Shown: piece by piece, positions 1-28,833 of the stretch
Position numbering within the stretch: the first letter of the stretch is position 1
Layout of the letters: each line of letters begins with the position of its first letter
DNA from: Macrostomum lignano
Taxonomy: Eukaryota
Direction: 5' to 3'
Assembly (NCBI GenBank): GCA_002269645.1
Contig: NIVC01001748.1
Location: forward strand, 1 to 64,000
Length of the DNA stretch: 64,000 nt
Notes under the pieces: model-generated
The model's database searches: none
What the model was told of the DNA's origin: nothing
Seen by the model: only the letters and a program-made list of their open reading frames with translations
Program-made: the position numbers and the translations under genes

Positions 1-147
1 TCCTGGCTTATCGGTGGTGTCAAAGTTCATGATGCCGCATTCTTTTCTTAGAGGAAAATCAGGCAGAGTGTCCCTCATAAATATTCCTCTAAAGTTTGGG
101 ATTTCCAGTTCGTTAGCCAAATCTTCAAGAAAGTTATTTGTTGTCAT
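1..147 (-). CDS. Adenain-like (Polinton PRO) cysteine protease, N-terminal 49 aa; runs off the window
   Basis: Not in the ORF track. Manual translation from ATG 147: MTTNNFLEDLANELEIPNFRGIFMRDTLPDFPLRKECGIMNFDTTDKPG. This matches the FRG(V/I)FMRD.LP...ECGI.N.D...G(THW) motif of Polinton proteases. The ATG overlaps the end of the PolB reading frame. Confidence 0.8.
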   Translation of the reverse strand, partial: MTTNNFLEDLANELEIPNFRGIFMRDTLPDFPLRKECGIMNFDTTDKPG

Positions 148-3100
148 TTTTTATGAGGTTTATTAAACTTTCTCTCAACCTAAACCCAATATCCACCTCT
201 AAACCTAACCTCCAATGCCCGAACGGTAGACTGTTGATATTGTCATCAAAAATGAATCTCTTGTTATCTGCACCTGACAGTCCAATCTTCTTTTGCTGAA
301 TTGTGTGAATAATATGGTTTTTAGATTGTAGCTTTGAGAACTCATGTGATGTCTTTTTGTTGCAATTCAAGGCGTCTCTGTATTCAGCTTCATTAATTTC
401 CTTCCTAACCACACGTTTCGGAATTCCCTTTGATTTTTTATTGGGTCTGACGACTCACATTTTATAAAATAGGACTTTGCTCTCAACCCAATGAATTCAG
501 TGATTATGTCACCAGCAATCTCGTCCTTCATTTTCCCAATCACTTTCTTGTTAGTGGCGTCAAACACTTGATCGCCATTCTGTGTCCTGAAAGATTCATC
601 ATACTCAGACAAGTCAAACAAATCTTTTTGCTGCAGCATGTCCTGATAAATGTCTTCTGTTTGAATGTCCATAATAAAACTGTCTGTGTCAGTGTACAAG
701 AGTTTCATTTTATCCTTGTACTGCTGCTTCATGCCATAGAAGAACTGGTACATCAGACGTTTTGATTCGTCGAGAACAGTGACACCTGTATAGATCGGCT
801 TGCGCAGCGTCACCTTGGTTTTGTAAAATATGATCACACCTAAGTAGCTATTAAAGATATGGAGTTCTTTGAATGTTGGCTTTGACAATTTGCCTGAATA
901 ACATCAGGCTCTGATGAGGTAACAAGTTTCAGGTTTGTTCTTTTCCGCTCATTCTCAAGAGTCTTGCCATAGACAGAGTTGTTGGCCAACTTAAAGAGGT
1001 TCTTGTCAAAGTCGTTGGTTGCTTTGGTCCTAAACTGGGTGTTCTTATCAATGTAGGGTTTCATCCACGCTTCCTCTGTAAATGTAAGAGCCCGGTGAAC
1101 TTGGTGACCCTGCAACCAAGTGAGATAAAATACTGAAGCAGTTTGTAATGGATTTTGTAACGTGTCTTGTTGTTTAGATTCTGTGTTAGTTTCTCTGTAT
1201 GTTCTTTTTCTGTTCCTGACAGCGCCAAGTTCCATTATCATTGGGAGTTTCGATTATTTTCGGGCACTTGATGTTCTCGGGAAGGGTGGAAAGTCAGAGA
1301 AATAGTCGTGAAGCTCTGGTGGAATGTAAACATCAACCTCATAAATGGCAGCCAATGAAAAGTCCCGTTTGAATTCTGATGAGGGTAACCATCGAAAATC
1401 TCTAACTGGAAGATCTTGACTCATCGCCCACCCGTAGAGATTATTAGCGTCCAAGTAAGTAATGTAGTTTGAGGGCTGCTCCTTATTGTAAGATTCAATG
1501 TAGGGATTGTTTGCTTTTGCATATCTATGGTGCAAATTGAGATTCCCCCTCGCTTTGACGATTCGACAAAATTGTACATGTCAATGTCTGTAAGAAGTTC
1601 AATGTACCAATCTGGATCTTGATCCCATTTCATTTTAAGCAAAGATTCCCAGCTAGTGGCAGGCAGAGACACATAATGTGCTGGATCGAGGCCATATGCT
1701 GTGTACCAGGTGATCTGAAGGTTTCAAACACATCGGCCAGCAGAAACACATCTGTGTAGAGGTAAAGCAGGTGATACTGGAAGAAGTTTTGACAATTAAA
1801 GTAATTATAGACATGCTTCGCGTGCTCATAGTCTTTGTCAGAGATTCCAGAGTCTGTTAGCTTTGAAAAGAACTTCTCCTGTGGTGGTAAACCTTCTTCA
1901 AATACGTGATACCCAGTAATATTTTCATAGGGGTAGAAGCCTTTGGTTCTCAGGAGTTTAAATGATTCATCAGTGTTGTTAATTTTACTTGCAAACATCT
2001 TTGTATATGTACATTGTTCATCTTTTAGATTCTTGCTTAGTTCGTCTAGACTGGCAGCTAGAAATTGATATGAATCCTTCAGTCTTATTTTACCTTACCC
2101 GAATTATCCTGTTTAATATCAACACACTTAAACTTCTCCTTGTTCTCTGCGATGCAATCAAGGTGTATGTCTGGAATCATGCCGATTTTTTCAACTATTA
2201 AATGCATGTCATAGTTCTTTGCGTTGTGACAAAATATCGTTAGATCATGAATGTTCGATTTTAGCTTTAGATTACAGGTGTTATGCGCTGCACCTCTAAA
2301 TTTCCCAGTAAGTGGCAGTGGTCCCTAACGGTGGGGTTTTTAATATTAGTGCAAGTTAAATGTTTCCTGCAGATGTGGCAATGAGTTGCTGATAGGAAAT
2401 TGCTTTCATCCTCCTCAGTCATCATTATTGGAACAGGTTGAAGGGTGCTAATCACTTTTTGCAACTCTAACATTCTGGCAATAAACTGCTCCACACACTG
2501 CTCTCCAAAGAAATAATTATACTCAACAAGTCCTTTTGTATTAATAAAGGCATATGCTACTGAATTGGGGACATGTTTTTGAGTTTGAGTTTGAGTTTGT
2601 TTTTGAGTTTGAGTTTGTTTTTGTGTTTCCGGCATGATTGAGCATTCGAAATCAGCATATACAACAAATGGGAGCTTCTCCATCTTGTGATAGTTCTTAA
2701 ACCGGAGATACTTCTCTTCAGCTGAAGGAAGAGAGCAGTTTGTCGGGTGATCCTCGCATGATAATTCATGCTCTGTTAGCTTTTCAAAGCGCTTCAGGTC
2801 CACTGTAATGCTTAAGGCACAAGCGGCAGATGGCAACAGCCTCGTGATGATTATTCAACTGCTTGTGAATGAGTCTTGAAAGATCTTTAATCCAAACATA
2901 GTGAGCCTCCTCTAGTAAATTACCAATCACTAGAAGATCCACTTCAGTCCGCCTTTTCCCCTCGGATCTAAAACGTCTTTGCTACATCTGACCGGTTGAA
3001 CTTTCTCAGTTTTTCACTCCACTCAAAGACTGTGATTCTAATTTTGTTATTAAACACTTCTTCTAGCTTTGGGATCTGAGAGATCGCCAAGCCTCCTTTG

Positions 3101-4034
3101 TCAAACCTGATTCCCTTCTTTTCGCATTCGATGAGATAGTAGTTGAAATAATTTTGATAATTTGAGGTTCTTTCGGGGTGGTGAGGTACACAAAAAGTGC
3201 AGAAAGAACTGCCCATAGAGCACAGCAATTGTCTTTATTTTTAACATTTATGCAAGCTTTTTTACCGGCTAGCTTATGCGGGAGCTCTATATAAGAGGAG
3301 GCTTTAAGTGGGTCATATTTCATGACCATGACAGTCGCTCTTTGAATCCCTCCCACGACCCATCCGGAACCTCTGGATGTAAACGCTTCAATTTTCTTAT
3401 TGACATCTTGAAGGAAAGGATCCAGTGTGTCTGTTGGGGTGAATGGCTTTGCCTTTGTTGTCATGTAATACTCGAGATGCTCAGTGGGTTTTGCAGGCAT
3501 ATAAAACGCAATCTTGAATGATATCTGTAGTTTAAAGGTCTTGCGTGTTTTGAGTGTGTGATCAACAACTGATTGGATGCTGTCTTTATAGTCGTAAATG
3601 TTTGCGGTGGTACCGTTGGTGCCGTTTATTGGGATTGTGTACTCTATGTAATGTTCTGTAAACTTCGTCTGTGCAAAATTAATCTCTTCAGTGGCAAGCT
3701 CCGACTCTTTTAAATGGATTAATTGCTCTAATTTCTCTTGTTCCTGCTTATTTTGTGGGTACTTTGCTTTTTCACCAGTGAGAGTTTCATATTTGTTAAC
3801 TAAGTTGCGACTCCTCTCTTGGTGTTCCTTTGCAGAATTTTTTATAGGCGCATACTGGTTTGATTCTAATTGATTGATGATTTCCAACTGTTTTTCATAG
3901 CTTCCCAGGTGACCAGGGTCGGTGTTGAACTTTTGTTTGCATGCTTCTCTTAGTGAATTACTTTTGTCTTGAAATGAGACGCCTTTTGAAAAATATTTGT
4001 TGACTAAATCTCTTGCTGGATTGGCTTTTGGCAT
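134..4034 (-). pseudogene. Protein-primed family B DNA polymerase (pPolB) with endonuclease VII-like insert; multiple frameshifts
   Basis: Consecutive ORF fragments carry SSYIELP..L..KKACINVKNKDN, LPFVVYADFEC, CHIC...VRDHCH (EndoVII-like), YLDANNLYGWAM (motif A), KLANNSVYGK (motif B), LLYTDTDS (motif C), KKVIGKMKDE and the C-terminal KRFI....SLPFGH. At least 8 frame changes. Likely ATG at 4034 (MPKANPARDL). Confidence 0.92.
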
Positions 4035-4156
4035 TTTTCTCGAAAATATAAAAAAAATTTTGAGGGTGACCACCCTGATAGAAAAGTTGAACTGTTTCTA
4101 CATCCTATCAGTAGCTTTAGGTTTATGAAGCTGGATAAAGTGGGTTTTAAACCTCA

Positions 4157-4603
4157 TCACATCCGCATTATTGTAAACCCAGCATTGTGCAGTGTCATGA
4201 TGGCTTTGACAATGTCAGACTTGCTTACAGAATTTTCATGCTCACAATCATCACGATCGGGGCAACCATCTCCTGCCTTAATTGTTATACCTTTGTCTCT
4301 TGCAATCTTTTGCAATTCTAGCTGGTGGGCTCTATCATTCCCAGCTTTAACAGCAGTTGCTACACCTCCAGCTACACCACCTGCGGCACTTACAGCGCCT
4401 GCAATGATCGGAATAAGAGCTGCTAATGGTAGGATTCCTCCTGACTTTTCATCTGTGATGCTGTGTCTTTGCTCATTACACTGAACTATTTGCTGCACGG
4501 GATCGATTTTTACTTTGGCACCTTTAATTGATATAAGACCTGGTTTCTTTGATTCAATGATTTTATTGAGTTTATTGATGGTTCTGGTTTCAATCTTTGT
4601 CAT
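4157..4603 (-). CDS. 148-aa virion core/membrane-type protein with an adenovirus pX-like GG-ILPL hydrophobic segment
   Basis: Intact ORF with AAAAATGACA start context. It contains KSGGILPLAALIPIIAGAVSAAGGVAGGVATAV, which resembles adenovirus pX ...RGGILPLLIPLIAAAIGAVPGIASVAL. Confidence 0.65.
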   Translation of the reverse strand: MTKIETRTINKLNKIIESKKPGLISIKGAKVKIDPVQQIVQCNEQRHSITDEKSGGILPLAALIPIIAGAVSAAGGVAGGVATAVKAGNDRAHQLELQKIARDKGITIKAGDGCPDRDDCEHENSVSKSDIVKAIMTLHNAGFTIMRM

Positions 4604-4618
4604 TTTTATTTTAATATT

Positions 4619-5655
4619 TTAATTAATTTCTGTGTCAGCCGGTATCACTAGGAGTTCAGCTCTAGTGAATGACCGCGTGGTGGATTTAGGGTTAAAGGCC
4701 TGAGATAAAAAGTAATAGTCACCGGAGTCGGAGGTAAAATGTCTGTCTATTTTATGTACATCAAGGCTGAAGTATGGATCTGTAGCTCTTCTTTTAGTGT
4801 CCTTCTCTAGCTCTCCAGGTAGATATAAAAAGCGTAGAAACTCAGAGTTTGTCAGTATGTATGGTGATTCAACTCCTGGAAGCTTAGGGTAGTTCGAGGT
4901 GTGTTTTGTGTTGTGCGTGTTGTGTGGGGTTGTCGTGTTGTTGTCTGTTCTATGAGATGCCTTAAGTTCGACAGTGTCTTGTTTAATTGCATGGGATGGT
5001 TTCAATCCAGTCATGCGTGTGACTTCATTGTTCAGTTGCTCTATAACAGTGGGGAGTCTTTCTGTCCACTTGGTATAGTACTGCCCCGCACTCAGTTTGA
5101 GTTCTTGCGCTGTCTGCTTAGTGAATAGTCTCTTGGCTAGAGTTAGATTGAATCTTTCCACAAAAGCCTGGTCTCTGTGCAAGTTTGTTCTGCCATAGCG
5201 AATCTCTGTGTTTTTCTTTTCCATAAGGGATTTCACTACACCCATGAATTCCTTACCCGGGTCGGTCATAAAGATTTGGGGTATGTGAGCGGAGAGTTTT
5301 TATAAATATCTTGCAGTGCGCTGGCAACAACCTCTGACTTCTTCGTCTTGAGTGGGCGAGCTTCCTTATATCTGGAAGCAATGTCAATAATTGTAAGAGC
5401 ATACTTGTAGCCTGAGTCATTGGGGAGAAACAAAAGATCTGCTTGGTGCGCTTCATTAGGTTTATAAATACTGAAATGGGGCCTTTCAAATTTTACTGGT
5501 GGGAAATAGACTTGAAAGACAGCCTGCTTAGAGAGCCATTTTTTTACTGTAGCTTTTGGTTCCTTACTCAGCTCCATGAGTTTACTAACGGCATTTTTGC
5601 CTACAAAGAAACCTTTGTCGCTGTAGTAGAGCTTTTGAAGTTTCTGATCTGTCAT
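4619..5655 (-). pseudogene. Retroviral-type (rve) DDE integrase of Polinton type, split by one frameshift near 5268
   Basis: ORFs 5266-5655 and 4619-5269 join at PKSL/MTDPGKEF (1-nt frameshift). Catalytic residues lie in HQADL, TDPGKEF and AFVERFN. YKYALTIIDIASRY is typical of this family. Confidence 0.9.
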
Positions 5656-5685
5656 TTATTTAAAAAGAAAATTTTAAATAAAATA

Positions 5686-6135
5686 ATGCAGCGCTCTGGT
5701 GGTAAAATAGATTCACATGGACTGATAGAAAAGCTTCCTCATCCAAACAAAGGCTGGACACTTCCCGGCTATAAATATTGCGGGCCTTTGAATCCACTTG
5801 AAATACAGCTGGATGGAAACAACAACCCAAATCCTGGGCATGAGCCTGTGAACGAGCTAGACTCTGTCTGCATGTGGCACGATGTTAAATATAGAGATTT
5901 TCCTGAGGAGAAGAATCGCTGGGACAAAGAAATGCTTAAGAGACTAGACAATATAGGGGCTTCAAGCGGATTTCGTGAGTCGATCGCTCGGAAGCTAGTT
6001 AAAGCTGTTATTTTTAGTAAGACAAAACTGGGGTTGGGGGTTCAAGGCGAAGGTGGGGTGGGTTTTGCATTGCACGCGCCAAGTCAAGAACTAGGAAGAC
6101 TGTTGAAAGAGCTGGGGGTTGAGAGAGCAGAATGA
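5686..6135 (+). CDS. Parvovirus VP1-type phospholipase A2 domain protein (149 aa)
   Basis: ATG at 5686 lies inside track ORF 5443-6135. Motifs TLPGYKYCGPLN (Ca-binding loop, YxGPxN) and EPVNELDSVCMWHDVKY (HDxxY catalytic dyad). Confidence 0.88.
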   Translation: MQRSGGKIDSHGLIEKLPHPNKGWTLPGYKYCGPLNPLEIQLDGNNNPNPGHEPVNELDSVCMWHDVKYRDFPEEKNRWDKEMLKRLDNIGASSGFRESIARKLVKAVIFSKTKLGLGVQGEGGVGFALHAPSQELGRLLKELGVERAE

Positions 6136-6144
6136 TTCTCTCTC

Positions 6145-6272
6145 CACTTGTGTGGAGCGAAAAGAAGCGAAGGCCAAAAGGCCAGAACGCAAAGGATTTT
6201 GGCCTCGAGTAAGGCCAAATTTTATCGCAAACTGGCCTTTTGGCCTTCGCTTCGCTTTTCTCCACACAAGTG
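6145..6272. other. ~128-nt imperfect inverted repeat (long hairpin/cruciform)
   Basis: 6145-6157 pairs with 6260-6272 (13 bp). 6164-6185 GAAGCGAAGGCCAAAAGGCCAG pairs perfectly with 6232-6253 (22 bp). There is an inner TTTGGCCT/AGGCCAAA stem around CGAGTA. Confidence 0.9.
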
Positions 6273-6539
6273 TACAGTCTTGAGCACACTGGTTTCGGCT
6301 ACAATCTCTCTTTCCACCATGCTTCTCCTTCATGCTCCTCACCTCCTCACCCTATGCTTTGTCTATAGAGAAGTCTCACCCCTCACATTCACACGCCTCA
6401 TGCTCTATCGTACACTGAGCTATATCGATTGTTTTCCCTGCTTGACTCCAAGATTGTACAGTCTGGAATTTTCTAGAATTTTCTACGGCTAGCTATATTT
6501 AAGCAAACACAGAAACACTCGGGCTGCTTCTCCCCACAT

Positions 6540-7107
6540 ATGCCCTCAACTGCTACTGATAAACGGCGACTGCAAAATCTTAAGTCAAAACTACGGACTG
6601 CACAAAATGTGACAACCGCGTTGCACGCTGATAGCGACCTCAAAACCTGTCCGCTAGAGACTATATATATAGTGTGGAATGAAAGTTCACTTCAGAGAAA
6701 TACGGAATTTTTTAAATCAGTGCAGGTAAGACTCGAAATTTGTGTTTTCTGTGTATTTCTGGGTACTTTTTTATCATTAATCATGGCATTGTTTCATTTA
6801 TTACTATTTGAAGGTGGTTAAAGACCTAAAGGAAAAGATTCAAATTAAAGAGAAGGAGTTGGAGAGCCGCGAGAGGGAAAACATCCCGCGTGGATGCGAA
6901 TGCCCAGTGTGCTACAACTGGCTTTCGCCTTCTAGGAAGCTGGACTGCCCGCATTCGTTCTGCTTGAGATGTGTCCAAACTTTGTACAATGCGGCAGAAA
7001 ATAGTATAACATGTCCAGAGTGTCGTGCGATAACATCCAAGACGATCGATCAATTGCAAACAAATGTGGCAATGGAGAGAGCGATTGAAAGTCATCGAAT
7101 AAATTAG
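6540..7107 (+). CDS. Spliced coiled-coil + C3HC4 RING finger protein (159 aa), putative viral E3 ligase; exons 6540-6725 and 6814-7107
   Basis: Track ORFs 6540-6821 and 6808-7107 join in phase 0 through an 88-nt intron, CAG|GTAAGA...TTTGAAG|GTG. RING motif CPVC...CPHSFCLRC...CPEC, preceded by a charged heptad segment. Confidence 0.78.
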
Positions 7108-7220
7108 TTTCGATTTAAGATTCTGCAGTCGTCGTTTGTTAGTAAACATAAAACACCTTTACGAAAATAAAATATAATCTTAAATCTTAAATAAAATATA
7201 ATGAGTCTTTGTTTCTTTTC

Positions 7221-7494
7221 TTTCTGTCAGGGATAATGCTCTGATTCTGTCAGGGATAATATGGATGGATTTAATGGAATTATGGAGGACGTTTTGTGAG
7301 CGAGTGCGACCCCCTTTTTTTCTGATTCTGTCAGGGATAATATGGATGGATTTAATGGGATTATGGAGGAGGTTTTTGGAGCAGGTGCGACCCCCCTTTT
7401 TTTCTGATTCTGTCAGGGATAATATGGATGGATTTAATGGGATTATGGAGGAGGTGAAAAATTTTGTCCCAGAAGCCCCCTCATGCCTTCTACT
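7221..7494. repeat. Putative terminal inverted repeat arm of the Polinton with ~82-bp subterminal tandem repeats (~2.6 copies)
   Basis: TCTGATTCTGTCAGGGATAATATGGATGGATTTAATGG... recurs at about 7241, 7321 and 7403. The sequence ends in CTACT. The partner TIR is outside the window. Confidence 0.6.
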
Positions 7495-8135
7495 TACCTG
7501 GTTGGAGGTTAATTATCTGCCAACCCATAATTGCGATGCGTGTTTTACCTGGTTGGAGGTTAATTATCTGCCAACCCATAATTGTGATACGTGTTTTACC
7601 TGGCTGCAGGTTAATTATCTGCCAACCCATAATTGCGATGCGTGTTTTACCTGGTTGGAGGTTAATTATCTGCCAACCCATAATTGTGATACGTGTTTTA
7701 CCTGGCTGTAGGTTAATTATCTGCCAACCCATAATTGTGATACGTGTTTTACCTGGCTGCAGGTTAATTATCTGCCAACCCATAATTGTGATGCGTGTTT
7801 TACCTGGCTGCAGGTTAATTATCTGCCAACCCATAATTGTGATACGTGTTTAACCTGGCTGCAGGTTAATTATCTGCCAACCCATAATTGTGATGCGTGT
7901 TTTACCTGGCTGTAGGTTAATTATCTTCCAACCCATAATTGTGATGAGTGCTTTACCTGGCTGTAGGTTAATTATCTGCCAACCCATAATTAGGATGCGT
8001 GTTTTACCTGGTTGTAAGTTAAAATTATCTGCCGACCCATAATTGTGATGCGTGTTTTACCTGGTTGTAAGTTAATTATCTGCCAAGCCATAATTATGAT
8101 GCGTGTTTCACCTGATTGCAGGTTAACTATCTGCC
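7495..8135. repeat. 51-bp minisatellite (~12 copies), intronic
   Basis: Unit GTGTTTTACCTGG(T/C)TG(G/C)AGGTTAATTATCTGCCAACCCATAATTG(C/T)GAT(G/A)C. The first unit is truncated at 7495. Confidence 0.95.
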
Positions 8136-8234
8136 AACTGTTCATGTGCCTATATTCTTTTTTATGTTTTTACCTTTTTGGCTCTAACATTATCAGCTAA
8201 TTGGCACGGATAATTAATTATAACGCAGACTCAC

Positions 8235-11200
8235 CTGTAAACACCCTAATATAGATTCTGGCGTGGTTCAAATCCTGCAGCATTGATTCGCCTCCGATTC
8301 CAATGGCTCGAATTATTCCTTCAAGCAAGTCTAGAATATCCGTCAGCAGTTTGATCCAGTAGGACACCTCTTTAATAATGCCGTAGAGCACCTGAAATTC
8401 AAGCATTGCAACTGTCGTAATCAGCGATTGATTATTGTTGTACGCAATTGCGTTGAAGGAATTGAATATTTGCAAAGACTCAGTGTTAGAGTCTGAGGGT
8501 CACAATTTAATAATTTTTAGTTGTCATTAGTATCTGCTTGTCCGTTTATGGCGGCCCTAATTAAAAAATTCCTTTTCAGATATTTTGGCTTCTTTCAAAA
8601 AGTAATTAAAGTTCATTTGGGATCATGAATTCTTTTGATATACATATGTATTACTTCTGGACTGAGCTTTATGGCCTCTTCTACATAGACCACATCATTC
8701 ATCAAGTTTGACGCATCATTCATCAAGTTTGACGAATCATTCATCAAGTTTGACGCATCATTCATCAAGTTTGACGCATCATTCATCAAGTTTGACGAAT
8801 CATTAATCAAGTTTGACGCATCATTCATCAAGTTTGACGAATCATTCATCAAGTTTGACGCATCATTCATCAAGTTTGACGCATCATTCATCAAGTTTGA
8901 CGCCTCAGTCATCAAGAATGACGCATCATTCATCAAGTTTGACGCATCATTCATCAAGTTTGACGCATCATTCATCAAGTTTGACGCATCATTCATCAAG
9001 TTTGACGCATCATTCATCAAGTTTGACGCCTCAGTCATCAAGTTTGACGCCTCAGTCATCAAGTTTGACGCATCATTCATCAAGTTTGACGCCTCAGTCA
9101 TCAAGTTTGACGCATCATTCATCAAGTTTGACGCCTCAGTCATCAAGTTTGACGCCTCAGTCATCAAGTTTGACGCATCATTCATCAAGTTTGACGGCTC
9201 ATTCATCAAGAATGACGCCTCAGTCATCAAGTTTGACGCCTCAGTCATCAAGTTTGACGCCTCAGTCATCAAGTTTGACGCATCAGTCATCAAGTTTGAC
9301 GCATCAGTCATCAAGTTTGACGCCTCAGTCATCAAGTTTGACGCCTCAGTCATCAAGTTTGACGCCTCAGTCATCAAGTTTGACGCACCATTCATCAAGT
9401 TTGACGCACCATTCATCAAGTTTGACGCATCATTCATCAAGTTTGACGCATCATTCATCAAGTTTGACGCATCATTCATCAAGTTTGACGCATCATTCAT
9501 CAAGTTTGACGCCTCATTCATCAAGTTTGACGCCTCAGTCATCAAGTTTGACGCATCATTCATCAAGTTTGACGCATCATTCATCAAGTTTGACGCCTCA
9601 GTCATCAAGTTTGACGCACCATTCATCAAGTTTGACGCATCATTCATCAAGTTTGACGCCTCAGTCATCAAGTTTGACGCCTCAGTCATCAAGTTTGACG
9701 CCTCAGTCATCAAGTTTGACGCCTCAGTCATCAAGTTTGACGCCTCAGTCATCAAGTTTGACGCATCATTCATCAAGTTTGACGCATCATTCATCAAGTT
9801 TGACGCACCATTCATCAAGTTTGACGCACCATTCATCAAGTTTGACGCACCATTCATCAAGTTTGACGCATCATTCATCAAGTTTGACGCATCATTAACC
9901 AAGTTTGACGCACCATTCATCAAGTTTGACGCATCATTCATCAAGTTTGACGCACCATTCATCAAGTTTGACGCATCATTCATCAAGTTTGACGCATCAT
10001 TAACCAAGTTTGACGCACCATTCATCAAGTTTGACGCATCATTCATCAAGTTTGACGCATCATTCATCAAGTTTGACGCATCATTAACCAAGTTTGACGC
10101 ATCATTAACCAAGTTTGACGCACCATTCATCAAGTTTGACGCATCATTCATCAAGTTTGACGCCTCAGTCATCAAGTTTGATGCATCATTCATCAAGTTT
10201 GACGCATCATTCATCAAGTTTGACGGCTCATTTATCAAGAATGACGGCTCATTCATCAAGTTTGACGCATCAGTCATCAATTTTGATGCATCAGTCATCA
10301 AGTTTGACGCCTCAGTCATCAATTTTGATGCATCAGTCATCAAGTTTGACGCATCATTAACCAAGTTTGACGCATCATTAACCAAGTTTGACGCACCATT
10401 CGTCAAGTTTGACGCATCAGTCATCAAGTTTGACGCATCAGTCATCAAGTTTGACGCATCATTCATCAAGTTTGATGCATCAGTCATCAAGTTTGACGCA
10501 TCAGTCATCAAGTTTGACGCATCAGTCATCAAGTTTGACGCATCAGTCATCAAGTTTGACGCATCATTCATTAAGTTTGATGCATCAGTCATCAAGTTTG
10601 ACGCATCAGTCATCAAGTTTGATGCATCAGTCATCAAGTTTGACGCATCAGTCATCAAGTTTGATGCATCAGTCATCAAGTTTGACGCATCAGTCATCAA
10701 GTTTGATGCATCAGTCATCAAGTTTGACGCATCAGTCATCAAGTTTGACGCATCAGTCATCAAGTTTGACGCATCAGTCATCAAGTTTGACGCATCAGTC
10801 ATCAAGTTTGATGCATCAGTCATCAAGTTTGACGCCTCGTGCGTCGAATTAATCAATTCTGGAACCATGGTCCGACGTGTCCACTCAGCGAGAATTATCC
10901 GTGAGATCAATAAGTGTGAACTCACCATATAGATCACTATGCCGACAGCAGTATAGGTGCAAATTATTCTTGGCGAATAGCGGAATCCAATTCTTCTTTG
11001 ATAGCTGATGGCTCTCAGGGCTTGCTTGAGCTTTTCTCTGACTGAATTGCTTTGAGCACTGCGTTGACAATTGAATGAAAGGTGAAGTCGGTTCGTAACC
11101 AATTGCTACAGCGTTTCAAGGTCTCGTGGAGCCACCCAAAAAGTAACTAAAAGTTATTTCTATTAATTTTCAGGGCAAACTCACCTGTCTCTACTATCTG

Positions 11201-14200
11201 TCTTGTTAATGAAAAGGTCTCGAACGTACTCCACCTGGTAGACATACTCCAGTCTGGTTACTCTCATTGAGGCATTCTTTCCTAGAATGAGTTGCACCAT
11301 TCGATAGGGGAAGATCGCTGAGAGACCGAGCATGCAGCCGATGCTTGGAAGAAATTTGATCATGATAATGATGTGCGACTCCTGCAAATTGGATGGGGGA
11401 CTTGGCTGTGGGCTTTGATTCGTCAACTTGGTGTTTTAACCTGCTTTTTTAGTTCCATCTGACTGATTTTAGGGAATATCAATGGGTATCAAGGAGCGAA
11501 GTGGTTATCAAGGAATGAGGTGGGGGTGGGTATCAATGAGTGAGGTGGATATCAAATGAGTGAGGTGGATATCAATGAGTGAGGTGGATACCATCAATGA
11601 GTGAGGTGGATATCAATGAGTGAGGTGGATATCAAGTGAGGTGGGTGAGGTGGGTATCAATGAGTGAGGTGGTTATCAATGAGTGGGGTGGATATCAAGT
11701 GAGGTGGGTGAGGTGGATATCAAATGAGTGAGGTGTTTATCAAATGAGTGAGGTGGTTATCAAATGAGTGAGGTGGTTATCAAATGAGTGAGGTGGATAT
11801 CAAATGAAGTGGATATCAAGTGAGGTGGGTGAGGTGGATATCAATGAGTGAGGTGGATATCAAATGAGTGAGGTGGATATCAATGAGTGAGGTGGTTATC
11901 AATGAGTGAGATGGATATCAAATGAGTGAGGTGGATATCAATGAGTGAGGTGGATATCAATGAGTGAGGTGGATACCATCAATGAGTGAGGTGGTTATCA
12001 ATGAGTGAGGTGGATATCAATGAGTGAGGTGGATATCAATGAGTGAGGTGGATATCAATGAGTGATGTGGATATCAATGAGTGAGGTGGATATCAATGAG
12101 TGAGGTGGATATCAAATGAGTGATGTGGATATCAATGAGTGAGGTGGATACCATCAATGAGTGAGGTGGATATCAAATGAGTGATGTGGATATCAATGAG
12201 TGATGTGGATATCAATGAGTGATGTGGATATCAATGAGTGAGGTGGATACCATCAATGAGTGAGGTGGATATCAAATGAGTGAGGTGGATATCAATGAGT
12301 GAGGTGGATATCAATGAGTGAGGTGGATATCAATGAGTGATGTGGATATCAATGAGTGAGGTGGATATCAATGAGTGAGGTGGATATCAATGAGTGAGGT
12401 GGATATCAAATGAGTGATGTGGATATCAATGAGTGATGTGGATATCAATGAGTGAGGTGGATATCAATGAGTGAGGTGGATATCAATGAGTGAGGTGGAT
12501 ATCAATGAGTGAGGTGGATATCAATGAGTGAGGTGGATATCAATGAGTGAGGTGGATATCAATGAGTGATGTGGATATCAATGAGTGATGTGGATATCAA
12601 TGAGTGAGGTGGATATCAATGAGTGAGGTGGATATCAATGAGTGAGGTGGATATCAATGAGTGAGGTGGATATCAATGAGTGATGTGGATATCAATGAGT
12701 GAGGTGGATATCAATGAGTGAGGTGGATATCAATGAGTGAGGTGGATATCAAATGAGTGAGGTGGATATCAATGAGTGAGGTGGTTATCAATGAGTGAGA
12801 CGGATATCAATGAGTGAGGTGGATATCAATGAGTGAGGTGGATATCAAGGCCAGTGTGAAGTGTGGAACGTGATAAAGAGTGAGATGAGCGGTGGAAAAT
12901 CAAAAGTGAATTTTGCATAGAGTTTTCGGCTGGATTCAATGCCAGGCAAATCATGGCAGGAATCTAATGAACTCGCAGCTTAAAAAACGTTGACCAAATC
13001 TGTACTCCTGCACCTGTATCATATTTCCTTTTTATCATTTTTTTGCTTTGATGCAAGGCATAGCAAGAGTTAATTGTAATATAAACATTTATGTAAGCTA
13101 CATTTGCTTTTGGAGAATCGGATTTAAAGAAGGCGTGCAGTGCGTGCTTTCCTAGCAGAAATTATTCCGATCCTAATTAATCTCTGCGATTTTCAAGCTT
13201 CGAGTTTGTGAACAGTGAGCGGACTTTTGGTCCTCATTAAGAAGTTCAGAGAAAGGCAGGGAAAAATCCTACTGAGTAGCTAGCTTTCTTCCAGGTAAAA
13301 AATGTTGATTTCCATTATGTATAATCCCAGGCCTCTCACCAGTGTTAGAGCAGCGCAATCCAGCCAGGCTAATCTCAGAATTGACATAATAGTCAATCCC
13401 CACATGTAGATCGTGCCCATGCCGAAGAACAATATATTTCGTTTCGTAATTGTGATGAATATCGGATACATTATCACGCAGTAGAGACAGATTTCGCTTA
13501 TTCGATACAGAACTGAAAAAAGCGAAGGATAATAAGATAATAAGCCTGATCATCGTACCGAAAAAAGCCTTGGCTGGCGAGGATTTGGTCAACTCCACAT
13601 CATTCTCTCACCCTCCTATCGTCTCTTATTGGCTGGCGAGGATTTGCCCAACTCATCCACCATTTTTTTACCCTCCTATCGTCTCTTATTGGCTGGCGAG
13701 GATTTGCCCAACTCATCCACCATTTTTTTACCCTCCTATCGTCTCTTATTGGCTGGCGAGGACTTTACCAACCATCACCATTCTCTTACCCTCCTATCGT
13801 CTCTTATTGGCTGGCGAGGACTTTTCCAACCATCACCATTCTCTTACCCTCCTATCGTCTCTTATTGGCTGGCGAGGAATTGCCCAACTTCCCCAACATT
13901 CTCTTACCCTCCTATTATCTCTTATTGACTGGTGAGGACTTCCCTAACCCTTACCATTCTCTAGGACTTGACTATGCTCTCATGAGCATGCCGTACTCAC
14001 CGTGAAGAAACTTGAACTGACCCTCAGGCCGGCTAGTGATGTACCGCTTGTAAAGATCGCTGTCTCCAAAGAGCAGATCGTGGCACAGCTGAGCGGCGAT
14101 ACCAAATGCCAAAGCGTAGGAAAATCGGAAGCTTCGATCCTCCAGAATGTTCATGGGACTATCGAATAAAAAATGGTCATTTGTATTGGTGGATGCTGTA

Positions 14201-17200
14201 CAGATTATGTTGGCCGCGCACGGGATCGAATCAAATCGAATTACGAGCTAACAAAGCGACTGGTTTCTTTAGGATTCTAAAAAATGTTTTTACTTCAAAG
14301 TACGCGCTATCCCACTAAGTTCATCAGTTACTAAAGCAAGCAGCAGAGCACTGACTCAGACTGGCTACTCACTGGGCTAGTCCAGGCCGGCCACTGAGAA
14401 AATCTGGCAGAAACCGCTTCCGTCTCATGGAGCAGCAGGCCATAATTAGCATTATTACCTGGTTTTGATGAGTAGTAGGCGGAGAGATGAAATGCATGTT
14501 AACAATCGTCAGATTTACTGACGGCTGGAAACATGGGCATATGCTTCTAAGAATACTTTGGAACTTTCAACTTTTTTATCACTCTGTCTCTGCCACTCTG
14601 TCTCTGTCACTCTGTCTCTGTCACTCTGTCTCTGTCACTCTGTCTCTGTCACTCTGTCTCTGTCACTCTGTCTCTGTCACTCTGTCCCTGTCACTGTCTC
14701 TGTCACTCTGTCACACTGTCACTCTATCTCTGTCACTCTGTCTCTATTACTCTGTCTCTGTCACTCTGTCTCTGTCACTCTGTCTCTGTCACTCTGTCTC
14801 TGTCACTCTGTCTCTGTCACTCTGTCTCTGTCACTCTGTCTCTGTCAGTCTGTCTCTGTCACTCTGTCACTGTCACTCTGTCTCTGTCACTCTGTCACTG
14901 TCACTCTGTCTCTGTCACTCTGTCTCTGTCACTCTGTCTCTGTCACTCTGTCTCTGTCACTCTGTCTCTGTCACTCTGTCTCTGTCACTCTGTCTCTGTC
15001 ACTCTGTCTCTGTCACTCTGTCTCTGTCACTCTGTCTCTGTCACTCTGTCTCTGTCACTCTGTCTCTGTCAGTCTGTCTCTGTCACTCTGTCACTGTCAC
15101 TCTGTCTCTGTCACTCTGTCTCTGTCACTCTGTCTCTGTCACTCTGTCTCTGTCAGTCTGTCTCTGTCACTCTGTCTCTGTCACTCTGTCACTGTCACTC
15201 TGTCTCTGTCACTCTGTCTCTGTCACTCTGTCTCTGTCACTCTGTCTCTGTCACTCTGTCTCTGTCACTCTGTCACTGTCACTCTGTCTCTGTCACTCTG
15301 TCTCTGTCATTTTAAACGTATCAGTCGGTCGCTATGAAAATATTGTTCAGTTAAAAAACTTTAGGGAAAATATTTCGATCCAAAAATCTTGAAGAATGCA
15401 CGAAGAAACCTCACAGAGGAGTTGAGATATCGATTGTATAAAAAATACATTCTACTAGAACATATTCCATAACTTTCTTCGTGACGCAAAAAGGAAGGGG
15501 CATGGTTCTGAATATGTTCTCTTGAAGTTTAAATTTTCCACAAGTTTTTTTCTTCTTCTATAGCTTCTTCCGCAGCAACAGCGGACAATCAAACGCCGGG
15601 CAAATATCGTTTCCGCTGCTTGTGCAGCATTGAGCACTGCTCAGTTTCCCTTTGCCATTTCCTGCAGCCGCGGCGAGGGAGGGGGCGAGGAGGCGAGGGC
15701 GGGGGGAGGGATCAGAAGCCTCCCACGTACCGTGATGACTAATTTTAGGCAGAACCAGATCGAGAGATTTTTGCCTATAAATTACTCAACTCTGATTGCA
15801 AAAATTGCGAAAAAATATTCATCTGAGTCTTTGAGAGCATAAACTCATTTCGGATGTATAATTCTAACGAGACGCACGTCATTCAGACGTGGTAATTAAT
15901 GGGCTTGTCGTCTCATCTTTGATTCTGATCAACCCTCTCCGTCTTTTATTATCTTTGTGCCGCTTTTTGATCATCCGCAATCGTTTCGTTCCTGCTAGCT
16001 GCCTCCGTCTCTGCGCATCCTGCTTCTCCCTTGCTCCCTCTCACCTCCTGCCTACCTCTAACCCTACGTCTATCTCTCTATCCGTCTCCCTCTCACCTCC
16101 TGTTTCCTTCTCTCACCAGCAGTCTACCTCCCATCTCACTCTCTTACCCTCTATCTACCTCTCTCACCCTTCGTCTCACCCCCACCCTCCGTCTCACTCT
16201 CACCCTCCGTCTCACTCTCACCTCCTGTTTCTTTCTCTCACCAGCAGTCTACCTCCCATCTCACTCCCTTACCCTCTATCTACCTCTCTCACCCTTCGTC
16301 TCACCCTCACCCTCCGTCTCACTCTCTTACCCTCTACCTACCTCTCTCACCCTTTGTCTCACCCTCACCCTCCGTCTCACTCTCTTACCCTCTATCTACC
16401 TCTCTCACCCTTCGTCTCACCCTCACCCTCCGTCTCACTCTCTTACCCTCTATCTACCTCTCTCACCCTTCGTCTCACCCTCACCCTCCGTCTCACTCTC
16501 TTACCCTCTATCTACCTCTCTCACCCTCCGTCTCACCCTCACCCTCCGTCTCACTCTCACCCTCCGTTTCACTCTCACCCTCCGTCTCACTCTCACCCTC
16601 CGTTTCACTCTCACCCTCCGTCTCACTCTCACCCTCCGTCTCACTCTCACCTTCATCCTCACTCTCACCCTCCATCTCACTCTCACCCTCCGTCTCACTC
16701 TCACCTCCTGTCTCCCTCCCTCCACCAGCAGTCTACCTCTTTCAAATCCCATCTCACTCTCACCCGTCTACCCTCTACCTCTCGCACTTCCCATCGCCCT
16801 CTCCTAGTCTCCATCTCCCTTTCTCATCCCATTTTGTACTCTCAATTCAAGTTTGTCTTGGCCACAGCACTTTTCTCGCCGATGCGTGGGAGGCAGAGCT
16901 GCATAGCAATTCCAGCTATCCGAGACTTGTTAAATCCCCCCTGTGGCCTCAGCTAACCTACCGTCTGCAGAACGGGGATAATCCTCTAATGCGCTCTACC
17001 GGTACTTAAATTTCACACTGAGGATTAAAACCATTAGCTGATGGTTTAGTAATAAGCGAACAATTACTTGTAGAGTAGAGATATTTGAGTTCACTCACGG
17101 CTGGGACCAGAGCGTACTCGTACACCAGTATGATGTTGATTTTATCCGTACAGATGTCGGTAGCGTTAAGCTTGGTTCGTTGCAGTTGCAGCTGAATTCT

Positions 17201-17269
17201 GATCATGTCCCACAGACCATTCATTGGCTCACCCGATGCCCACATCTGTTGGACTTCCGGGTCATCTGA
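8235..17269 (-). CDS. STRA6-like: STRA6-like (retinol-binding-protein receptor family) membrane protein, N-terminal ~373 aa. Exons: 17269-17099, 14458-14373, 14158-14001, 13512-13340, 11426-11185, 11058-10926, 8391-8235. Possible first exon 17893-17858 (MHETEFEEQLAR)
   Basis: All junctions are GT/AG and phase-consistent. Family motifs: C..K....YEYALVPAV, GRPGLAHPMNILEDRSFRFSYALAFG, YPIFITIT...GMGTIYMW, FLPSIGC..L..FP, YQVEYVRDL, GFRYSPRIICT. The last visible exon ends in phase 1 and no next exon is seen in the window. Confidence 0.85.
8692..10836. repeat. 21-bp minisatellite (~102 copies), stop-free on the minus strand as heptad DASNLM(N/T)
   Basis: Unit CATCA(T/G)TCATCAAGTTTGACG. It accounts for track ORF 8613-11102, and no frame-breaking indel interrupts that ORF. 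Confidence 0.97.
11530..12850. repeat. ~19-bp minisatellite, intronic
   Basis: Unit GATATCAATGAGTGAGGTG, with occasional +A and +CCAT variants. Confidence 0.95.
13570..13950. repeat. ~58-60-bp tandem repeat (~6 copies)
   Basis: TTGGCTGGCGAGGA...CCCTCCTATCGTCTCTTA is repeated. Confidence 0.9.
14580..15310. repeat. 14-bp/6-bp simple repeat (TCTCTGTCACTCTG)n
   Basis: Visible directly; generates the false SLCLCH ORFs. Confidence 0.95.
16030..16810. repeat. CT-rich degenerate tandem repeat
   Basis: CTCACCCTCCGTCTCACT-type units. Confidence 0.9.
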
Positions 17270-17299
17270 CTGAAATGCGGTGGTCACAATTTCGATTAT

Positions 17300-17715
17300 T
17301 GCAACAGTAAGAATGTGACAGACAATGGTCACAGTCACAGTAAGAATGTGACAGACAATGCCAGTAAGAACGTATCAGAATTTGACAGACAATGCCAGTA
17401 AGAACGTATCAGAATGTGACAGACAATGCCAGTAATAACGCATTAGAATGTGACAGACAATGCCAGTAATAACGCATTAGAATGTGACAGACAATGCCAG
17501 TAAGAATGTGTCAGAATGTGACAGACAATGCCATTAACAATGTGGGCAGAATGTGACAGACAATGCCATTAAGAATGTGGGCAGAATGTGACAGACAATG
17601 CCATTAAGAATGTGGGCAGAATGTGACAGACAATGCCATTAAGAATGTGGGCAGAATGTGACAGACAATGCCATTAAGAATGTGGGCAGAATGTGACAGA
17701 CAATGCCAGTAAGAA
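17300..17715. repeat. 35-bp minisatellite
   Basis: Unit CAGACAATGCCA(G/T)TAAGAATGTGGGCAGAATGTGA. Confidence 0.92.
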
Positions 17716-18459
17716 TAGGTCATAAATGACTATGAACATCGGAGAAACGAAAAAGAGCATTATTTTAAAGACAATTTTCGGAGTTTGTTACTGGTATTGC
17801 TTCAGTCTGATGTTGGCCTGGTGCAGAATGAACAGCAAATCAGAGCATTCAACTCACCCGAGCCAGCTGCTCTTCAAATTCGGTCTCATGCATCTGTTCA
17901 ATACTTGTTGATTCGTCCGTGTCAAAGCAAAAATCTTTTTGTCTACAGCAGCTGCGCGGGTTAGAAAGTGCAAAACAGACCAAGATATACTCAGTGGAGC
18001 CATTCGACTCTTTGGCTTTCGAGAATTTAGCCAAATTGCAAAAAGCTGACAAAACTGATAAAGCAAAACCAACTCACAGAGTCCAAATTTCTCTTCCGTT
18101 GCTGTCGACTTTTCAGTGTTAACTTTTCGCTGCAGACAGATAACGGATCGCGAGCGCATTTGCACGCAAGATGGGCGCGTGTGTACATTCTCTAACTGAA
18201 GTGCAGAGTTTAAAGAGCATACGGTGCTCATGACAAAACTCTGGCGCAATGCGATACACAAACTGCTATATGATCGCAGGTATTCGAGCAATAAATTTGA
18301 GTATAGTAACCAAAAGCGTAATGATGTCGTCAAAAATGAAGTCGTTTTAGAAAGGGCGTAAAACTGTCCATTTCTAAGTAGTATCTCTATTTATTCCACG
18401 CCTTGTGAAAGAATTGAACTTCAGTCTAGTCTGGAAAATCGCGTGCTTGGCGCGGCTCA

Positions 18460-18910
18460 AGGTCATTTGCATTCAAGAAGTAAACGTCACGCGATCGTCA
18501 CGTGGTGATTCAAGGTCATCTGCATTCAAGAGGCAAAAGTCACGCGATCGTCGCGTGGTGATTCAAGGTTATCTCTATTCATGAAGTAAACGTCATGCGA
18601 TCGTCGCGTGGTGATTCAAGGTCATCTGCATTCAAGAGGCAAAAGTCACGCGATCGTCGCGTGGTGATTCAAGGTCATCTGCATTCAAGAGGCAAAAGTC
18701 ACGCGATCGTCGCGTGGTGATTCAAGGTCGTCTGCATTCAAGAGGCAAAAGTCACGCGATCGTCGCGTGGTGATTCAAGGTCATCTCCATTCAAGAAGTA
18801 AACGTCACGTGATCGTCGCGTGGTGATTCAAGGTCATATGCATTCAAGAAGCAAACGTCACGTAATCGTTGCGTGGTGATTCAGGGTCATCTGCGCTCAA
18901 GAAGCAAACG
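18460..18910. repeat. 53-bp CpG-rich tandem repeat (~8 copies) with an internal palindrome
   Basis: Unit GATTCAAGGTCATCTGCATTCAAGAGGCAAAAGTCACGCGATCGTCGCGTGGT. CACGCGA/TCGCGTG forms a 7-bp stem. Confidence 0.93.
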
Positions 18911-19604
18911 TTAAATATGCGACACGTGCTATGCGCGCGACTTTTTATCTGTTTAATGTTTGCTTATTAAATGCCACGTGCAAAAGAGTTTAGAGGTAAA
19001 TATTTATCCTATGACTTCTATTCATACACTTAAAACAAAGTGATAACTGCACCTAAAAGTGGAAAAATATTAAACCTCTATTGTTTATTTCGAATCAGAT
19101 GGGTGATGGATAATGGAATGCCAGAAAGAAAAAAGAAATCAGCCTCATCGAATTGCAAATTAGCACGATCATAGCTCGGCGCCTCAGCTATTGAAGCCGC
19201 TGCTCCTCAGAACCCGTCCTACGTTCAGAAAGGATTTTTTTAGCTCAAAACCTATTTATTCCAGAAAATTTCTTAGCCCTTCATGCTCAAACCCGAGGCG
19301 GCGGCAGTTCACACCGGAGGTGCATGCAAATAGCCTATATTGGCTTCCACCGAGGGCGGAAAATCGAATATTGCGTAGGAGGACAAATCCTGTGCATTAG
19401 CTGTGTTTGTCTCACTGATACCTGCGAGAGAGGTTCGCAGTGGGTGTCTCAGCTGCCAAGGAAATGAATTGAATGTTTAGAAAAAGTTCTAACCTTTTTT
19501 TAGGAAGCATAAACTTGAATCCCTATCTGTAATTTAACGGTTGAATTCCTCGAAATGGATTTTAGGATTAGTAGTGGTAGCTTAGAATCACTTTTTGATC
19601 ACAG

Positions 19605-19965: not shown

Positions 19966-20237
19966 ACCGCCACCTTGGATTGGCACGAGTTCTCTACCTA
20001 ACTTTATATCGCCAACGAAAAAGTACAAAAAATAAGTGCAAAGAAAAGTTAAAATCATTTTCAACAGTGTTCTCCATTTTAATTGCCATCGGTACAAATC
20101 GCAAACAAAAAGATATCTCCTGAATTCTGCCAACTCAACAGCAGTAAAAATCTCCCATAGGCTGCATCTGTCCCACTGCTCAAATGAAAACGCACTTCTC
20201 ACGGCTATACGAGCCTGCTATTGGTTGCTATGCAGGC

Positions 20238-28800: not shown

Positions 28801-28833
28801 AAAAAGTCACTGTCCCCTACCTACAGATACTAA

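What the first reader, a model, noticed from the sequence alone, without database searches (positions are those of the whole stretch)
1..7494. Adintovirus/Polinton-like endogenous virus with its own accessory kit, apparently inside a host gene intron
Seen: protease, pPolB with an EndoVII-like insert, pX-like protein, integrase, PLA2 and RING genes packed with almost no spacing. Known: pPolB + rve integrase + adenain-like protease define Polintons, and many also encode capsids. Inference: this is a flatworm-type lineage with virion-entry genes (PLA2, pX-like) and a host-manipulation gene (RING). The STRA6-like gene points into it and lacks its C-terminal half, so the element is probably intronic.
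Basis: partly seen in the sequence, partly recalled or inferred. Interest (0 to 1): 0.75.

Follow-up and report, generated by a model that had tools for sequence, protein, structure and literature searches.

The report
Flatworm Polinton carrying spliced RING gene
This is one half of a complete, recently multiplying virus-like element (a Polinton/Maverick) sitting in an intron of a flatworm gene; its gene set is of a known kind, but it also carries a swappable, spliced ubiquitin-ligase-like passenger gene, and its many near-identical capsid genes make this worm a good place to look for virus particles.

Summary
Window 1-7494 is the right half of a ~14.9-kb Polinton/Maverick (adintovirus type). 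The window starts at a contig end. The left half lies on G000:C3609, which overlaps the window by 4.65 kb at ~99% and holds the second 274-bp TIR, the matching 6-bp target duplication, a double jelly-roll capsid gene, an A32 ATPase, the protease and a probable penton. STRA6-like exons flank the insertion on both sides, and an empty site exists on C850, so it is intronic. The family is large and young: 464 terminal motifs, at least 98 full-length capsid genes at 98-100% identity, capsid dN/dS 0.03-0.11. PLA2, pX and a pPolB nuclease insert are published features, not a private kit. Most pPolB frameshifts in the window look like assembly noise. The new point is the RING gene: two exons (6540-6725, 6814-7107) with a conserved 88-nt GT-AG intron. 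The spliced form appears in contigs of guessed-RNA runs, the gene sits in an exchangeable slot between PLA2 and the TIR, and it changes amino acids faster than core genes. Nematode Mavericks have the same kind of intron-bearing cargo slot. Verdict: new member of a known kind with a new cargo family.

The parts
1..150 (-). 5' part of adenain-like maturation protease (runs off the contig; whole 133-aa frame on C3609)
   Evidence: L034:7211-7609 hits Peptidase_C5 E 1e-4, over cut-off
181..4034 (-). protein-primed DNA polymerase B; frameshifted into pieces in this contig, mostly by apparent assembly indels; low end approximate
   Evidence: PF03175 on pieces; 1295-codon open frame in another copy; 10 of 13 frameshifting indels not reproduced in the second assembly of the same insertion
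2255..2390 (-). Endonuclease VII/HNH-like insert inside pPolB (approximate limits)
   Evidence: PF02945 E 2e-4 at aa 546-598 of P0014, under cut-off; phrog_423 E 6e-4
4157..4603 (-). adenovirus pX-like core protein, 148 aa
   Evidence: PF05829 E 4e-7, 30.2 bits against cut-off 25
4619..5655 (-). retrovirus-like (rve) integrase, split by one frameshift in this contig; 345-aa open frame in another copy
   Evidence: L016:4651-5685 rve E 2e-8, over cut-off
5686..6135 (+). parvovirus-type phospholipase A2-like protein, 149 aa
   Evidence: PF08398 E 7e-14; dN/dS 0.07-0.29 in 13 copies compared
6145..6272 (.). long palindrome at the inner boundary of the cargo slot
   Evidence: fold z = -11, 0 of 200 shuffles; matches of most non-RING copies end at window ~6057 or ~6138
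6494..6502 (+). TATA-like box ahead of RING exon 1
   Evidence: read from sequence; function inferred
6540..6725 (+). RING gene exon 1 (62 codons, probably helical/coiled-coil)
   Evidence: public gene models P0113/P0114
6726..6813 (+). 88-nt GT-AG spliceosomal intron, phase 0
   Evidence: joint skipping 88 nt with GT..AG ends in X4; loose ends in X1 that fit the same joint; no such joint listed for X15 or X16; donor motif in 19 of 19 and acceptor in 17 of 19 other RING copies printed
6814..7107 (+). RING gene exon 2 (97 codons; C3HC4 RING like TRIM/RNF8 ligases)
   Evidence: Pfam; PDB hits TRIM69, RNF8, TRIM32, E 6e-7 to 3e-6
7222..7494 (.). terminal inverted repeat (273-274 bp) with an 81-bp tandem unit at 7240-7455; ends ...TCTACT
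   Evidence: 99.3% match, inverted, to C3609:76089-76362
7495..7500 (+). 6-bp target-site duplication TACCTG
   Evidence: same 6 bases directly before the left TIR at C3609:76083-76088; the only such junction in G000
7494..8138 (.). host 51-bp intronic minisatellite that received the insertion
   Evidence: uninterrupted array of 25 units on C850
8235..8418 (-). STRA6-like exon just 5' of the interrupted intron (aa ~308-365 of P0004; upper limit approximate); donor at 8234
10908..17158 (-). further 5' exons of the STRA6-like host gene (aa 48-322 of P0004), separated by minisatellite-rich introns
   Evidence: tblastn with P0003/P0004

Best explanation
A recent insertion of a high-copy, capsid-encoding Polinton/Maverick (adintovirus type) in a phase-1 intron of a STRA6-like gene of a macrostomid flatworm. 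SHOWN: both ends, TIRs, 6-bp duplication, the core gene set, the intronic position, an empty site, and purifying selection on capsid, ATPase, probable penton, PLA2 and integrase. INFERRED from family knowledge: the element is excised or copied as linear dsDNA, replicated by protein-primed pPolB, packaged by the A32 ATPase into double jelly-roll capsids matured by the protease (pX as core protein, PLA2 for membrane passage), and re-inserted by the rve integrase. Between PLA2 and the right TIR lies an exchangeable cargo slot; here it holds a spliced 159-aa helical-plus-RING gene. Most likely mechanism for that gene (about 0.55): an E3 ubiquitin ligase derived from a host TRIM-like RING, transcribed from its own promoter in integrated copies, that helps the element by tagging a host silencing or defence protein.
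For: Left junction and overlap. STRA6 exons on both sides. Empty sites on C850 and C399. Capsid: PF21738 E 5e-5, under cut-off; AlphaFold pLDDT 88, pTM 0.88; Foldseek to Sputnik, PBCV-1 and mavirus capsids, E 3e-18 to 5e-15. ATPase PF04665. 464 termini, 0 in the reversed control. 98 of 98 scored capsid matches near full length at 98-100%, 96 without a stop. Perfect 6-bp duplication in 11 of 15 copies with both ends read. dN/dS: capsid 0.03-0.11 in 10 of 10 copies, PLA2 0.07-0.29, integrase 0.11-0.28. RING: splice joint, conserved intron, matching public gene models, and about 20 replacement against 2 silent changes versus the C14 copy, compared with 5:17 for PLA2 and 25:48 for integrase (Fisher p about 1e-5).
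Against: No particle, free linear end or extrachromosomal copy was seen; only contigs were available. X1 and X4 are only guessed to be RNA. RING dN/dS is not significantly above 1 (p 0.19, one subfamily pair, approximate site counts), so relaxed selection fits as well. The RING tree had no supported branch, and Atlas look-alikes were giant-virus RING proteins at 0.88, a lead only, so host origin is not shown. The penton call rests on position, size and Atlas feature hits to unnamed viral clusters (0.98, with recognition 2283 under the 2300 bar); its single-sequence fold failed (pLDDT 36). 3 of 13 pPolB frameshifts are shared by both assemblies of this insertion, and two other copies share 6-7 of them, so this copy may really be defective. 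The capsid count is taken from the best-scoring candidates (98 of 665 scored) and may include allelic or duplicated contigs.
Confidence: 0.88

Rival explanations
1. The family now spreads only inside cells as a self-synthesizing transposon; capsid genes are conserved because of a recent viral past, not present use.
For: No particles or free ends seen. Many copies are truncated, nested or lack capsid genes (C70, C105, C744, C67). Copies 98-100% alike have had little time to decay.
Against: Capsid dN/dS stays at 0.03-0.11 even among close copies (dS about 0.1), lower than pPolB (0.13-0.46) in the same set. PMC8097293 reads such a pattern as reinfection through particles.
Confidence: 0.3
2. The RING gene is a neutral passenger: a captured host fragment with a promoter, copied along with the element and of no use to it.
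For: Only about 10 close copies among roughly 230 elements. dN/dS near or above 1 in the recent comparison. Other copies carry unrelated genes or nothing in the slot.
Against: Frame, zinc ligands and intron are kept across subfamilies only 44-52% identical, with saturated dS and dN about 0.4. A second, unrelated Polinton family nested at C67 also carries a RING gene.
Confidence: 0.25
3. The RING gene is a selfish cargo (toxin or drive-like) or a superinfection-exclusion gene acting on other Polintons, like nematode Maverick cargo.
For: Same slot position and intron-bearing nature as the nematode wasp/krma cargo, one of which became a toxin (10.1101/2022.07.12.499685). Several co-resident lineages recombine gene by gene.
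Against: No linked antidote, no cross-species near-identical copy (one search returned one cluster only) and no phenotype data.
Confidence: 0.15
4. The junction to the STRA6 intron is a misassembly of a repetitive element.
For: The contig breaks inside the element, the flank is a minisatellite, and the two contigs differ by 31 indel events and 9 substitutions over 4.67 kb.
Against: Both junctions, on two contigs, carry the same 6-bp duplication and continue the exon order and reading phase of the STRA6 gene; C850 shows the same flanks joined without the element.
Confidence: 0.03

Closest known systems
Adintoviruses / animal Polintons-Mavericks (PMC8502044; PMC8097293)
   Same: pPolB, rve integrase, adenain, FtsK/A32 ATPase, double jelly-roll capsid, probable penton, TIRs, 6-bp duplication, PLA2 and pX-like proteins, purifying selection on core genes.
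   Different: PLA2 and pX are separate genes on either side of the integrase rather than one PLA2X fusion (Pfam finds pX only in 4157-4603). One gene has a spliceosomal intron, whereas intact vertebrate Mavericks are reported as intronless. The capsid is at most about 31% identical to most clusters outside a small 43-78% group. The word RING does not occur in the main text of either paper.
Nematode Mavericks with wasp/krma cargo (10.1101/2022.07.12.499685)
   Same: A variable region between a TIR and the integrase that holds intron-bearing cargo genes, exchanged by recombination.
   Different: Cargo here is a helical-plus-RING ligase-like gene or unrelated helical proteins, not proteases or kinases; the slot is about 1 kb in this copy; no fusogen was detected among the frames scanned; no cross-species transfer shown.
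pPolB with inserted nuclease domains (10.1101/2023.08.22.554363; PMC11161782)
   Same: HNH-type nuclease inside pPolB.
   Different: Membership of the pPolB1/pPolB2 or Alpha/Beta classes was not determined; no tree with named references was possible.
RING genes of protist virophages and PLVs (10.64898/2026.07.28.741278)
   Same: RING finger proteins occur in integrated relatives of Polintons.
   Different: Protist hosts; no splicing or cargo slot mentioned in the passages seen; no homology tested.
TRIM-type and RNF8 C3HC4 ubiquitin ligases
   Same: RING sequence; the RNF8 match also covers the helical segment before the RING (aa 59-145).
   Different: Only 159 aa, no B-box or substrate domain detected; encoded by a mobile element.

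Membership tests
Polinton/Maverick (adintovirus type) | protein-primed family B polymerase | tested here: met
   PF03175 E 6e-16 on an open copy and weaker on window pieces
Polinton/Maverick (adintovirus type) | retrovirus-like rve integrase | tested here: met
   PF00665
Polinton/Maverick (adintovirus type) | [quoted passage not shown] | tested here: met
   274-bp TIR and TACCTG on both sides; perfect duplication in 11 of 15 copies
Polinton/Maverick (adintovirus type) | double jelly-roll major capsid protein | tested here: met
   model pLDDT 88; Foldseek E 3e-18 to Sputnik capsid 3j26; PF21738 weak
Polinton/Maverick (adintovirus type) | packaging ATPase (FtsK/A32) | tested here: met
   PF04665 E 4e-6, over cut-off
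Polinton/Maverick (adintovirus type) | adenain-like protease | tested here: met
   PF00770 E 1e-4, over cut-off
Polinton/Maverick (adintovirus type) | single jelly-roll penton | tested here: inconclusive
   287-aa gene next to the capsid gene; no Pfam or PHROG hit; fold failed; Atlas hits to unnamed viral clusters
Adintovirus pPolB | N-terminal OTU-like protease domain | not tested
   a Cys- and a His-bearing segment are visible ahead of the exonuclease region in P0014, but no fold or profile test was run; the motif reading is recalled
Adintovirus Alpha versus Beta class | pPolB class and PLA2X versus GasderminX/Cupiennin accessory set | not testable with these tools
   PLA2 present (Alpha-type module), but no named reference sequences could be retrieved; the supplement held gave no hits
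Active endogenous virus | virions or free linear genomes | not testable with these tools
   only assembled contigs were offered
Maverick cargo gene (nematode type) | intron-bearing gene in a variable region between TIR and integrase | tested here: met
Maverick cargo gene (nematode type) | horizontal exchange between host species | tested here: inconclusive
   one search at near lengths found only the same-species cluster among 2 candidates
C3HC4 RING E3 ligase | eight zinc ligands in C3HC4 spacing | tested here: met
   PF15227, PF00097 and PF13445 at or over cut-off
C3HC4 RING E3 ligase | E2-dependent ubiquitin transfer | not testable with these tools
   needs a bench assay

The most novel reading that the evidence does not exclude
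The spliced RING gene is a latency-expressed viral gene: a minority of integrated copies transcribe it from its own promoter while the core genes stay quiet, and its E3 ligase acts in trans on host silencing or defence for the whole ~230-copy family, which still spreads through particles. The cargo slot (RING and at least two unrelated helical protein families) would then be a fast-turnover arms-race locus of an animal Polinton, open to RNAi in a laboratory flatworm.
Probability: 0.25. Interest if true: 0.78.

Novelty: new member of a known kind. Interest (0 to 1): 0.5.

Why it matters
Whether animal Polintons really make virions and what their accessory genes do is open: the papers read infer particles from gene content and selection. 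Here a family with at least 98 near-identical full-length capsid genes under strong purifying selection sits in a flatworm for which RNAi and piRNA-pathway knockdowns are published (PMC4604429). The RING gene gives a concrete, apparently spliced handle on host interaction. Public databases list it as a host 'hypothetical protein' in several copies, so it can mislead host gene-family and expression studies. The insertion also marks a presence/absence difference 142 nt from a splice acceptor of a STRA6-like gene.

Tried and rejected
No RNA holder listed: the run search found 20 holders in 8 studies, none on record as RNA; this is no evidence on expression. Contig depth peaks over the RING gene in X1 (about 16,000-32,000 against about 20-220 over core genes) and X4 (about 500-900 against about 13-90), while X15 and X16 are lowest there; the tool states that contig depth cannot rank genes, so this is kept as a hint only and not used as evidence. 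X4 had no cover at 6097-6604, also not used. IMG/VR scan with the capsid protein: 12 pattern matches, none confirmed. PDB sequence searches with the capsid, single and as a 43-row profile: nothing meaningful. Penton fold without an alignment: pLDDT 36, not searched further. RING tree of 12 rows (the second-family RING was dropped because the motif pattern did not match): no supported branch. Other cargo frames (225, 271, 303 aa): no Pfam hit better than E 0.008 and no PHROG hit. A bacterial promoter scan is irrelevant to this host. Earlier scan findings: none by place, words or sequence. Paper searches: Macrostomum+Polinton 1 paper, Macrostomum+Maverick 2, neither on this topic by title and abstract; Polinton+RING finger+intron 8 (6 listed); Maverick+cargo+E3 ubiquitin ligase+Polinton 0; the three gene ids 0; Maverick+Polinton+spliced+accessory genes 1. 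A pPolB phylogeny was not built because no named references were in hand. No complex prediction was sent.
Full report
OBSERVATION. The window is bases 1-64000 of contig C1748 of G000, so nothing lies to its left in that contig. pPolB and the integrase are frameshifted in this contig. An uninterrupted 1295-codon pPolB frame in another copy carries a weak Endonuclease VII match at aa 546-598.

THE MISSING HALF. A search for the expected left junction gave exactly one place, C3609:76083-76100. C3609 runs from there to its end at 88114 and overlaps window 1-4653 at 99.3% and 98.8%. By arithmetic the insertion is about 14.87 kb. It has 273-274-bp TIRs and the same 6 bases on both sides. Its left half holds a 428-aa capsid protein, a 266-aa A32 ATPase, the 133-aa adenain, a 287-aa probable penton and five unannotated frames. 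The capsid model from a 43-row alignment has pLDDT 88 and pTM 0.88. It matches the Sputnik, PBCV-1, iridovirus and mavirus double jelly-roll capsids (E 3e-18 to 5e-15), and MELD-virus and adintovirus entries in BFVD. The penton is not proven.

HOST GENE. PF14752 finds 3' STRA6 exons on C3609, C850 and C399. With named STRA6 proteins (66% identical over one exon, labelled Macrostomum lignano), tblastn places aa 48-365 on the window's minus strand and aa 368-693 on C3609 left of the element. The donor at window 8234 and the acceptor before C3609:75946 are GT and AG in phase 1. The element therefore lies 740 nt from the donor and 142 nt from the acceptor, inside a 51-bp minisatellite. C850 has both flanks joined by an uninterrupted array of 25 units. 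The insertion is intronic and absent from two other versions of the locus.

FAMILY. A 27-base terminal motif occurs 464 times (238 +, 226 -; reversed control 0). Among the first 100 listed, 30 inverted pairs lie within 40 kb (median 16.5 kb, range 3.8-31.9 kb). All 98 capsid matches scored (of 665 candidates) are near full length at 98-100% identity, and 96 have no stop; these are the best-scoring ones, and some may be allelic contigs. Of 15 copies with both ends read, 11 have a perfect 6-bp duplication, one has 5 of 6, and three have none. Pairwise Nei-Gojobori dN/dS against natural frames: capsid 0.03-0.11 (10 copies), probable penton 0.04-0.29 (9 of 10 computable), ATPase at most 0.14 where computable (6 of 10), integrase 0.11-0.28 (11), PLA2 0.07-0.29 (13), pPolB 0.13-0.46 (11), pX 0-0.68 (11), protease 0.05-0.58 (10 of 11 computable). 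These pairs share one reference and are not independent. Lineages recombine gene by gene. The nearest outside capsids are 70-78% identical and come from unnamed assemblies; then there is a 43-45% group, then about 30%. The lineage is distinct, but its host range is unknown.

ARE THE FRAMESHIFTS REAL? The two assemblies of this one insertion differ by 31 indel events and 9 substitutions over 4.67 kb. Of 13 frameshifting indels in the window's pPolB, 10 are not reproduced on C3609. Of the 12 small indel places listed (18 more not shown), 9 are seen in all four public runs. Most are therefore likely assembly noise. Three are shared by both assemblies, and two other copies share 6 and 7 of the 13, so a truly defective copy or systematic read error cannot be excluded.

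THE RING GENE. Its frame has no upstream Met. A contig of run X4 skips 88 nt with GT..AG ends at this place. Loose ends in run X1 at 6727 and 6812 carry the letters of the other exon. Contigs of X15 and X16 run through the intron, and no such joint is listed for them. X1 and X4 come from different studies but are only guessed to be RNA. Exon 1 is 6540-6725 (62 codons), exon 2 is 6814-7107 (97 codons), phase 0, with a TATA-like box upstream and AATAAA signals downstream. Public 159- and 168-aa gene models labelled M. lignano have this same join and are named as hypothetical or RING-type host proteins. The donor motif is present in 19 of 19 and the acceptor in 17 of 19 other copies printed, down to 44-52% protein identity, and 16 of 19 have integrase and PLA2 within 1.5 kb. 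The remaining 19 of the 39 matches were not in that script. Sixteen loci from among them were read later: two more lie in elements (C716, C1098), three are relics or solo copies with exon 1, and the others look like host TRIM-type genes without exon 1. Only 10 copies are 90% or more identical. Other elements carry unrelated genes or nothing between PLA2 and the TIR, and similarity to the window ends at or just before a strong palindrome at 6145-6272. The slot is thus exchangeable. Against the C14 copy the RING gene has about 20 replacement and 2 silent changes, unlike PLA2 (5:17), integrase (25:48) or capsid (7:28) (p about 1e-5 or less; pX p 0.02), but it is not significantly above neutrality (p 0.19). 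Its best solved relatives are TRIM69, RNF8 and TRIM32. Its origin is unresolved.

MECHANISM. Shown: anatomy, insertion, copy number, selection, and a spliced form in contigs. Inferred from family knowledge: protein-primed replication, packaging, protease maturation, PLA2-assisted entry and integrase-driven reinsertion. Inferred for the cargo: an E3 ligase transcribed from integrated copies that acts on a host silencing or defence factor (about 0.55), against a neutral passenger (0.25) or a selfish or exclusion role (0.15).

COMPARISON WITH PRINT. PMC8502044 (sections 3.1 and 3.2 read whole, plus passages; the one supplement held gave no hits, and supplementary figures with gene maps were not visible and may show RING genes) describes PLA2 and pX-like domains as adintovirus genes. 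10.1101/2023.08.22.554363 (passages and one section) and PMC11161782 (passages) describe nuclease inserts in pPolB. PMC8097293 (passages) reports intronless intact vertebrate Mavericks, 6-bp duplications and purifying selection. 10.1101/2022.07.12.499685 (passages and one section) describes a variable cargo region between TIR and integrase with intron-bearing genes, the closest precedent. 10.64898/2026.07.28.741278 (passages) lists RING proteins in protist virophages and PLVs. 10.1101/2025.04.19.649669 (passages; supplements not seen) reports Orthopolintovirales insertions in Rhabditophora without naming Macrostomum in the main text. PMC4604429 (passages) has no mention of Maverick or Polinton. 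10.64898/2026.10.13.758929 (passages) had nothing on point. Searches found no description of this family or its RING cargo; the library lacks most subscription papers and Repbase.

VERDICT. A real, complete, intronic Polinton of a known kind. The added value is a young, very high-copy, capsid-constrained family in a tractable flatworm, and a spliced RING cargo in an exchangeable slot. Novelty: new member of a known kind. Interest 0.5; 0.78 if the latency-ligase reading (probability 0.25) holds.

Noticed in passing
G000:C67, L022:~5665 to L103:~3910: A second, unrelated Polinton family is nested inside a copy of this one. It has its own pPolB with EndoVII, PriCT-2/D5_N and Prim-Pol frames, a RING gene, capsid (PF21738), ATPase, integrase and PLA2.
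   Followed up: partly
L069:6354-7028, L080:1219-2127, L077:6354-7166: Other copies carry unannotated 225-, 303- and 271-aa proteins in the same slot. The first two are related (E 5e-11), and the 225-aa gene occurs at 99-100% in 5 loci held, in one of them at the capsid end. A resemblance of their C-termini to DUF3102-type helices is recalled, not tested.
   Followed up: partly
C66, C298, C658, C782, C1304 copies against C3609: Gene-by-gene mosaics: C66 has an ATPase almost identical to C3609 (dS 0.01) but a capsid at dS 1.5, while C782 has a close capsid (dS 0.09) and a saturated ATPase.
   Followed up: partly
G000:C399 near 210,650: This version of the STRA6-like locus lacks about 1.2 kb that holds the exons for aa ~368-517 found on C3609 and C850; a real deletion or an assembly gap.
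   Followed up: no
window 7240-7455; C3826:56322-59596; C5003:1-2350: The TIR holds an 81-bp tandem unit that expands from about 3 copies to about 3 kb in some elements; in other copies the TIRs reach inward to 0.4-1.1 kb and duplicate a 79-aa frame at both ends.
   Followed up: no
G000:C277 ~27,870; C3262, C1178, C293, C2014, C1541: RING cargo copies with exon 1 but few or no core genes within the stretch read: relics or escaped cargo.
   Followed up: partly
window 8613-10928 (-): A 771-codon open frame is only the 21-bp intronic minisatellite read through from a STRA6 exon; nearly every intron in the window carries its own tandem array.
   Followed up: no
window 28861-29265 and 49184-49580: About 400 bp of inverted repeat 20 kb apart (88-91%), probably two copies of a small host repeat.
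   Followed up: no
G000:C5003 and C3826; C1604: C5003 and C3826 share the same 14 flank bases at one end, so some counted copies may be allelic or duplicated contigs; C1604 has two same-strand termini 14.6 kb apart, suggesting tandem copies.
   Followed up: no
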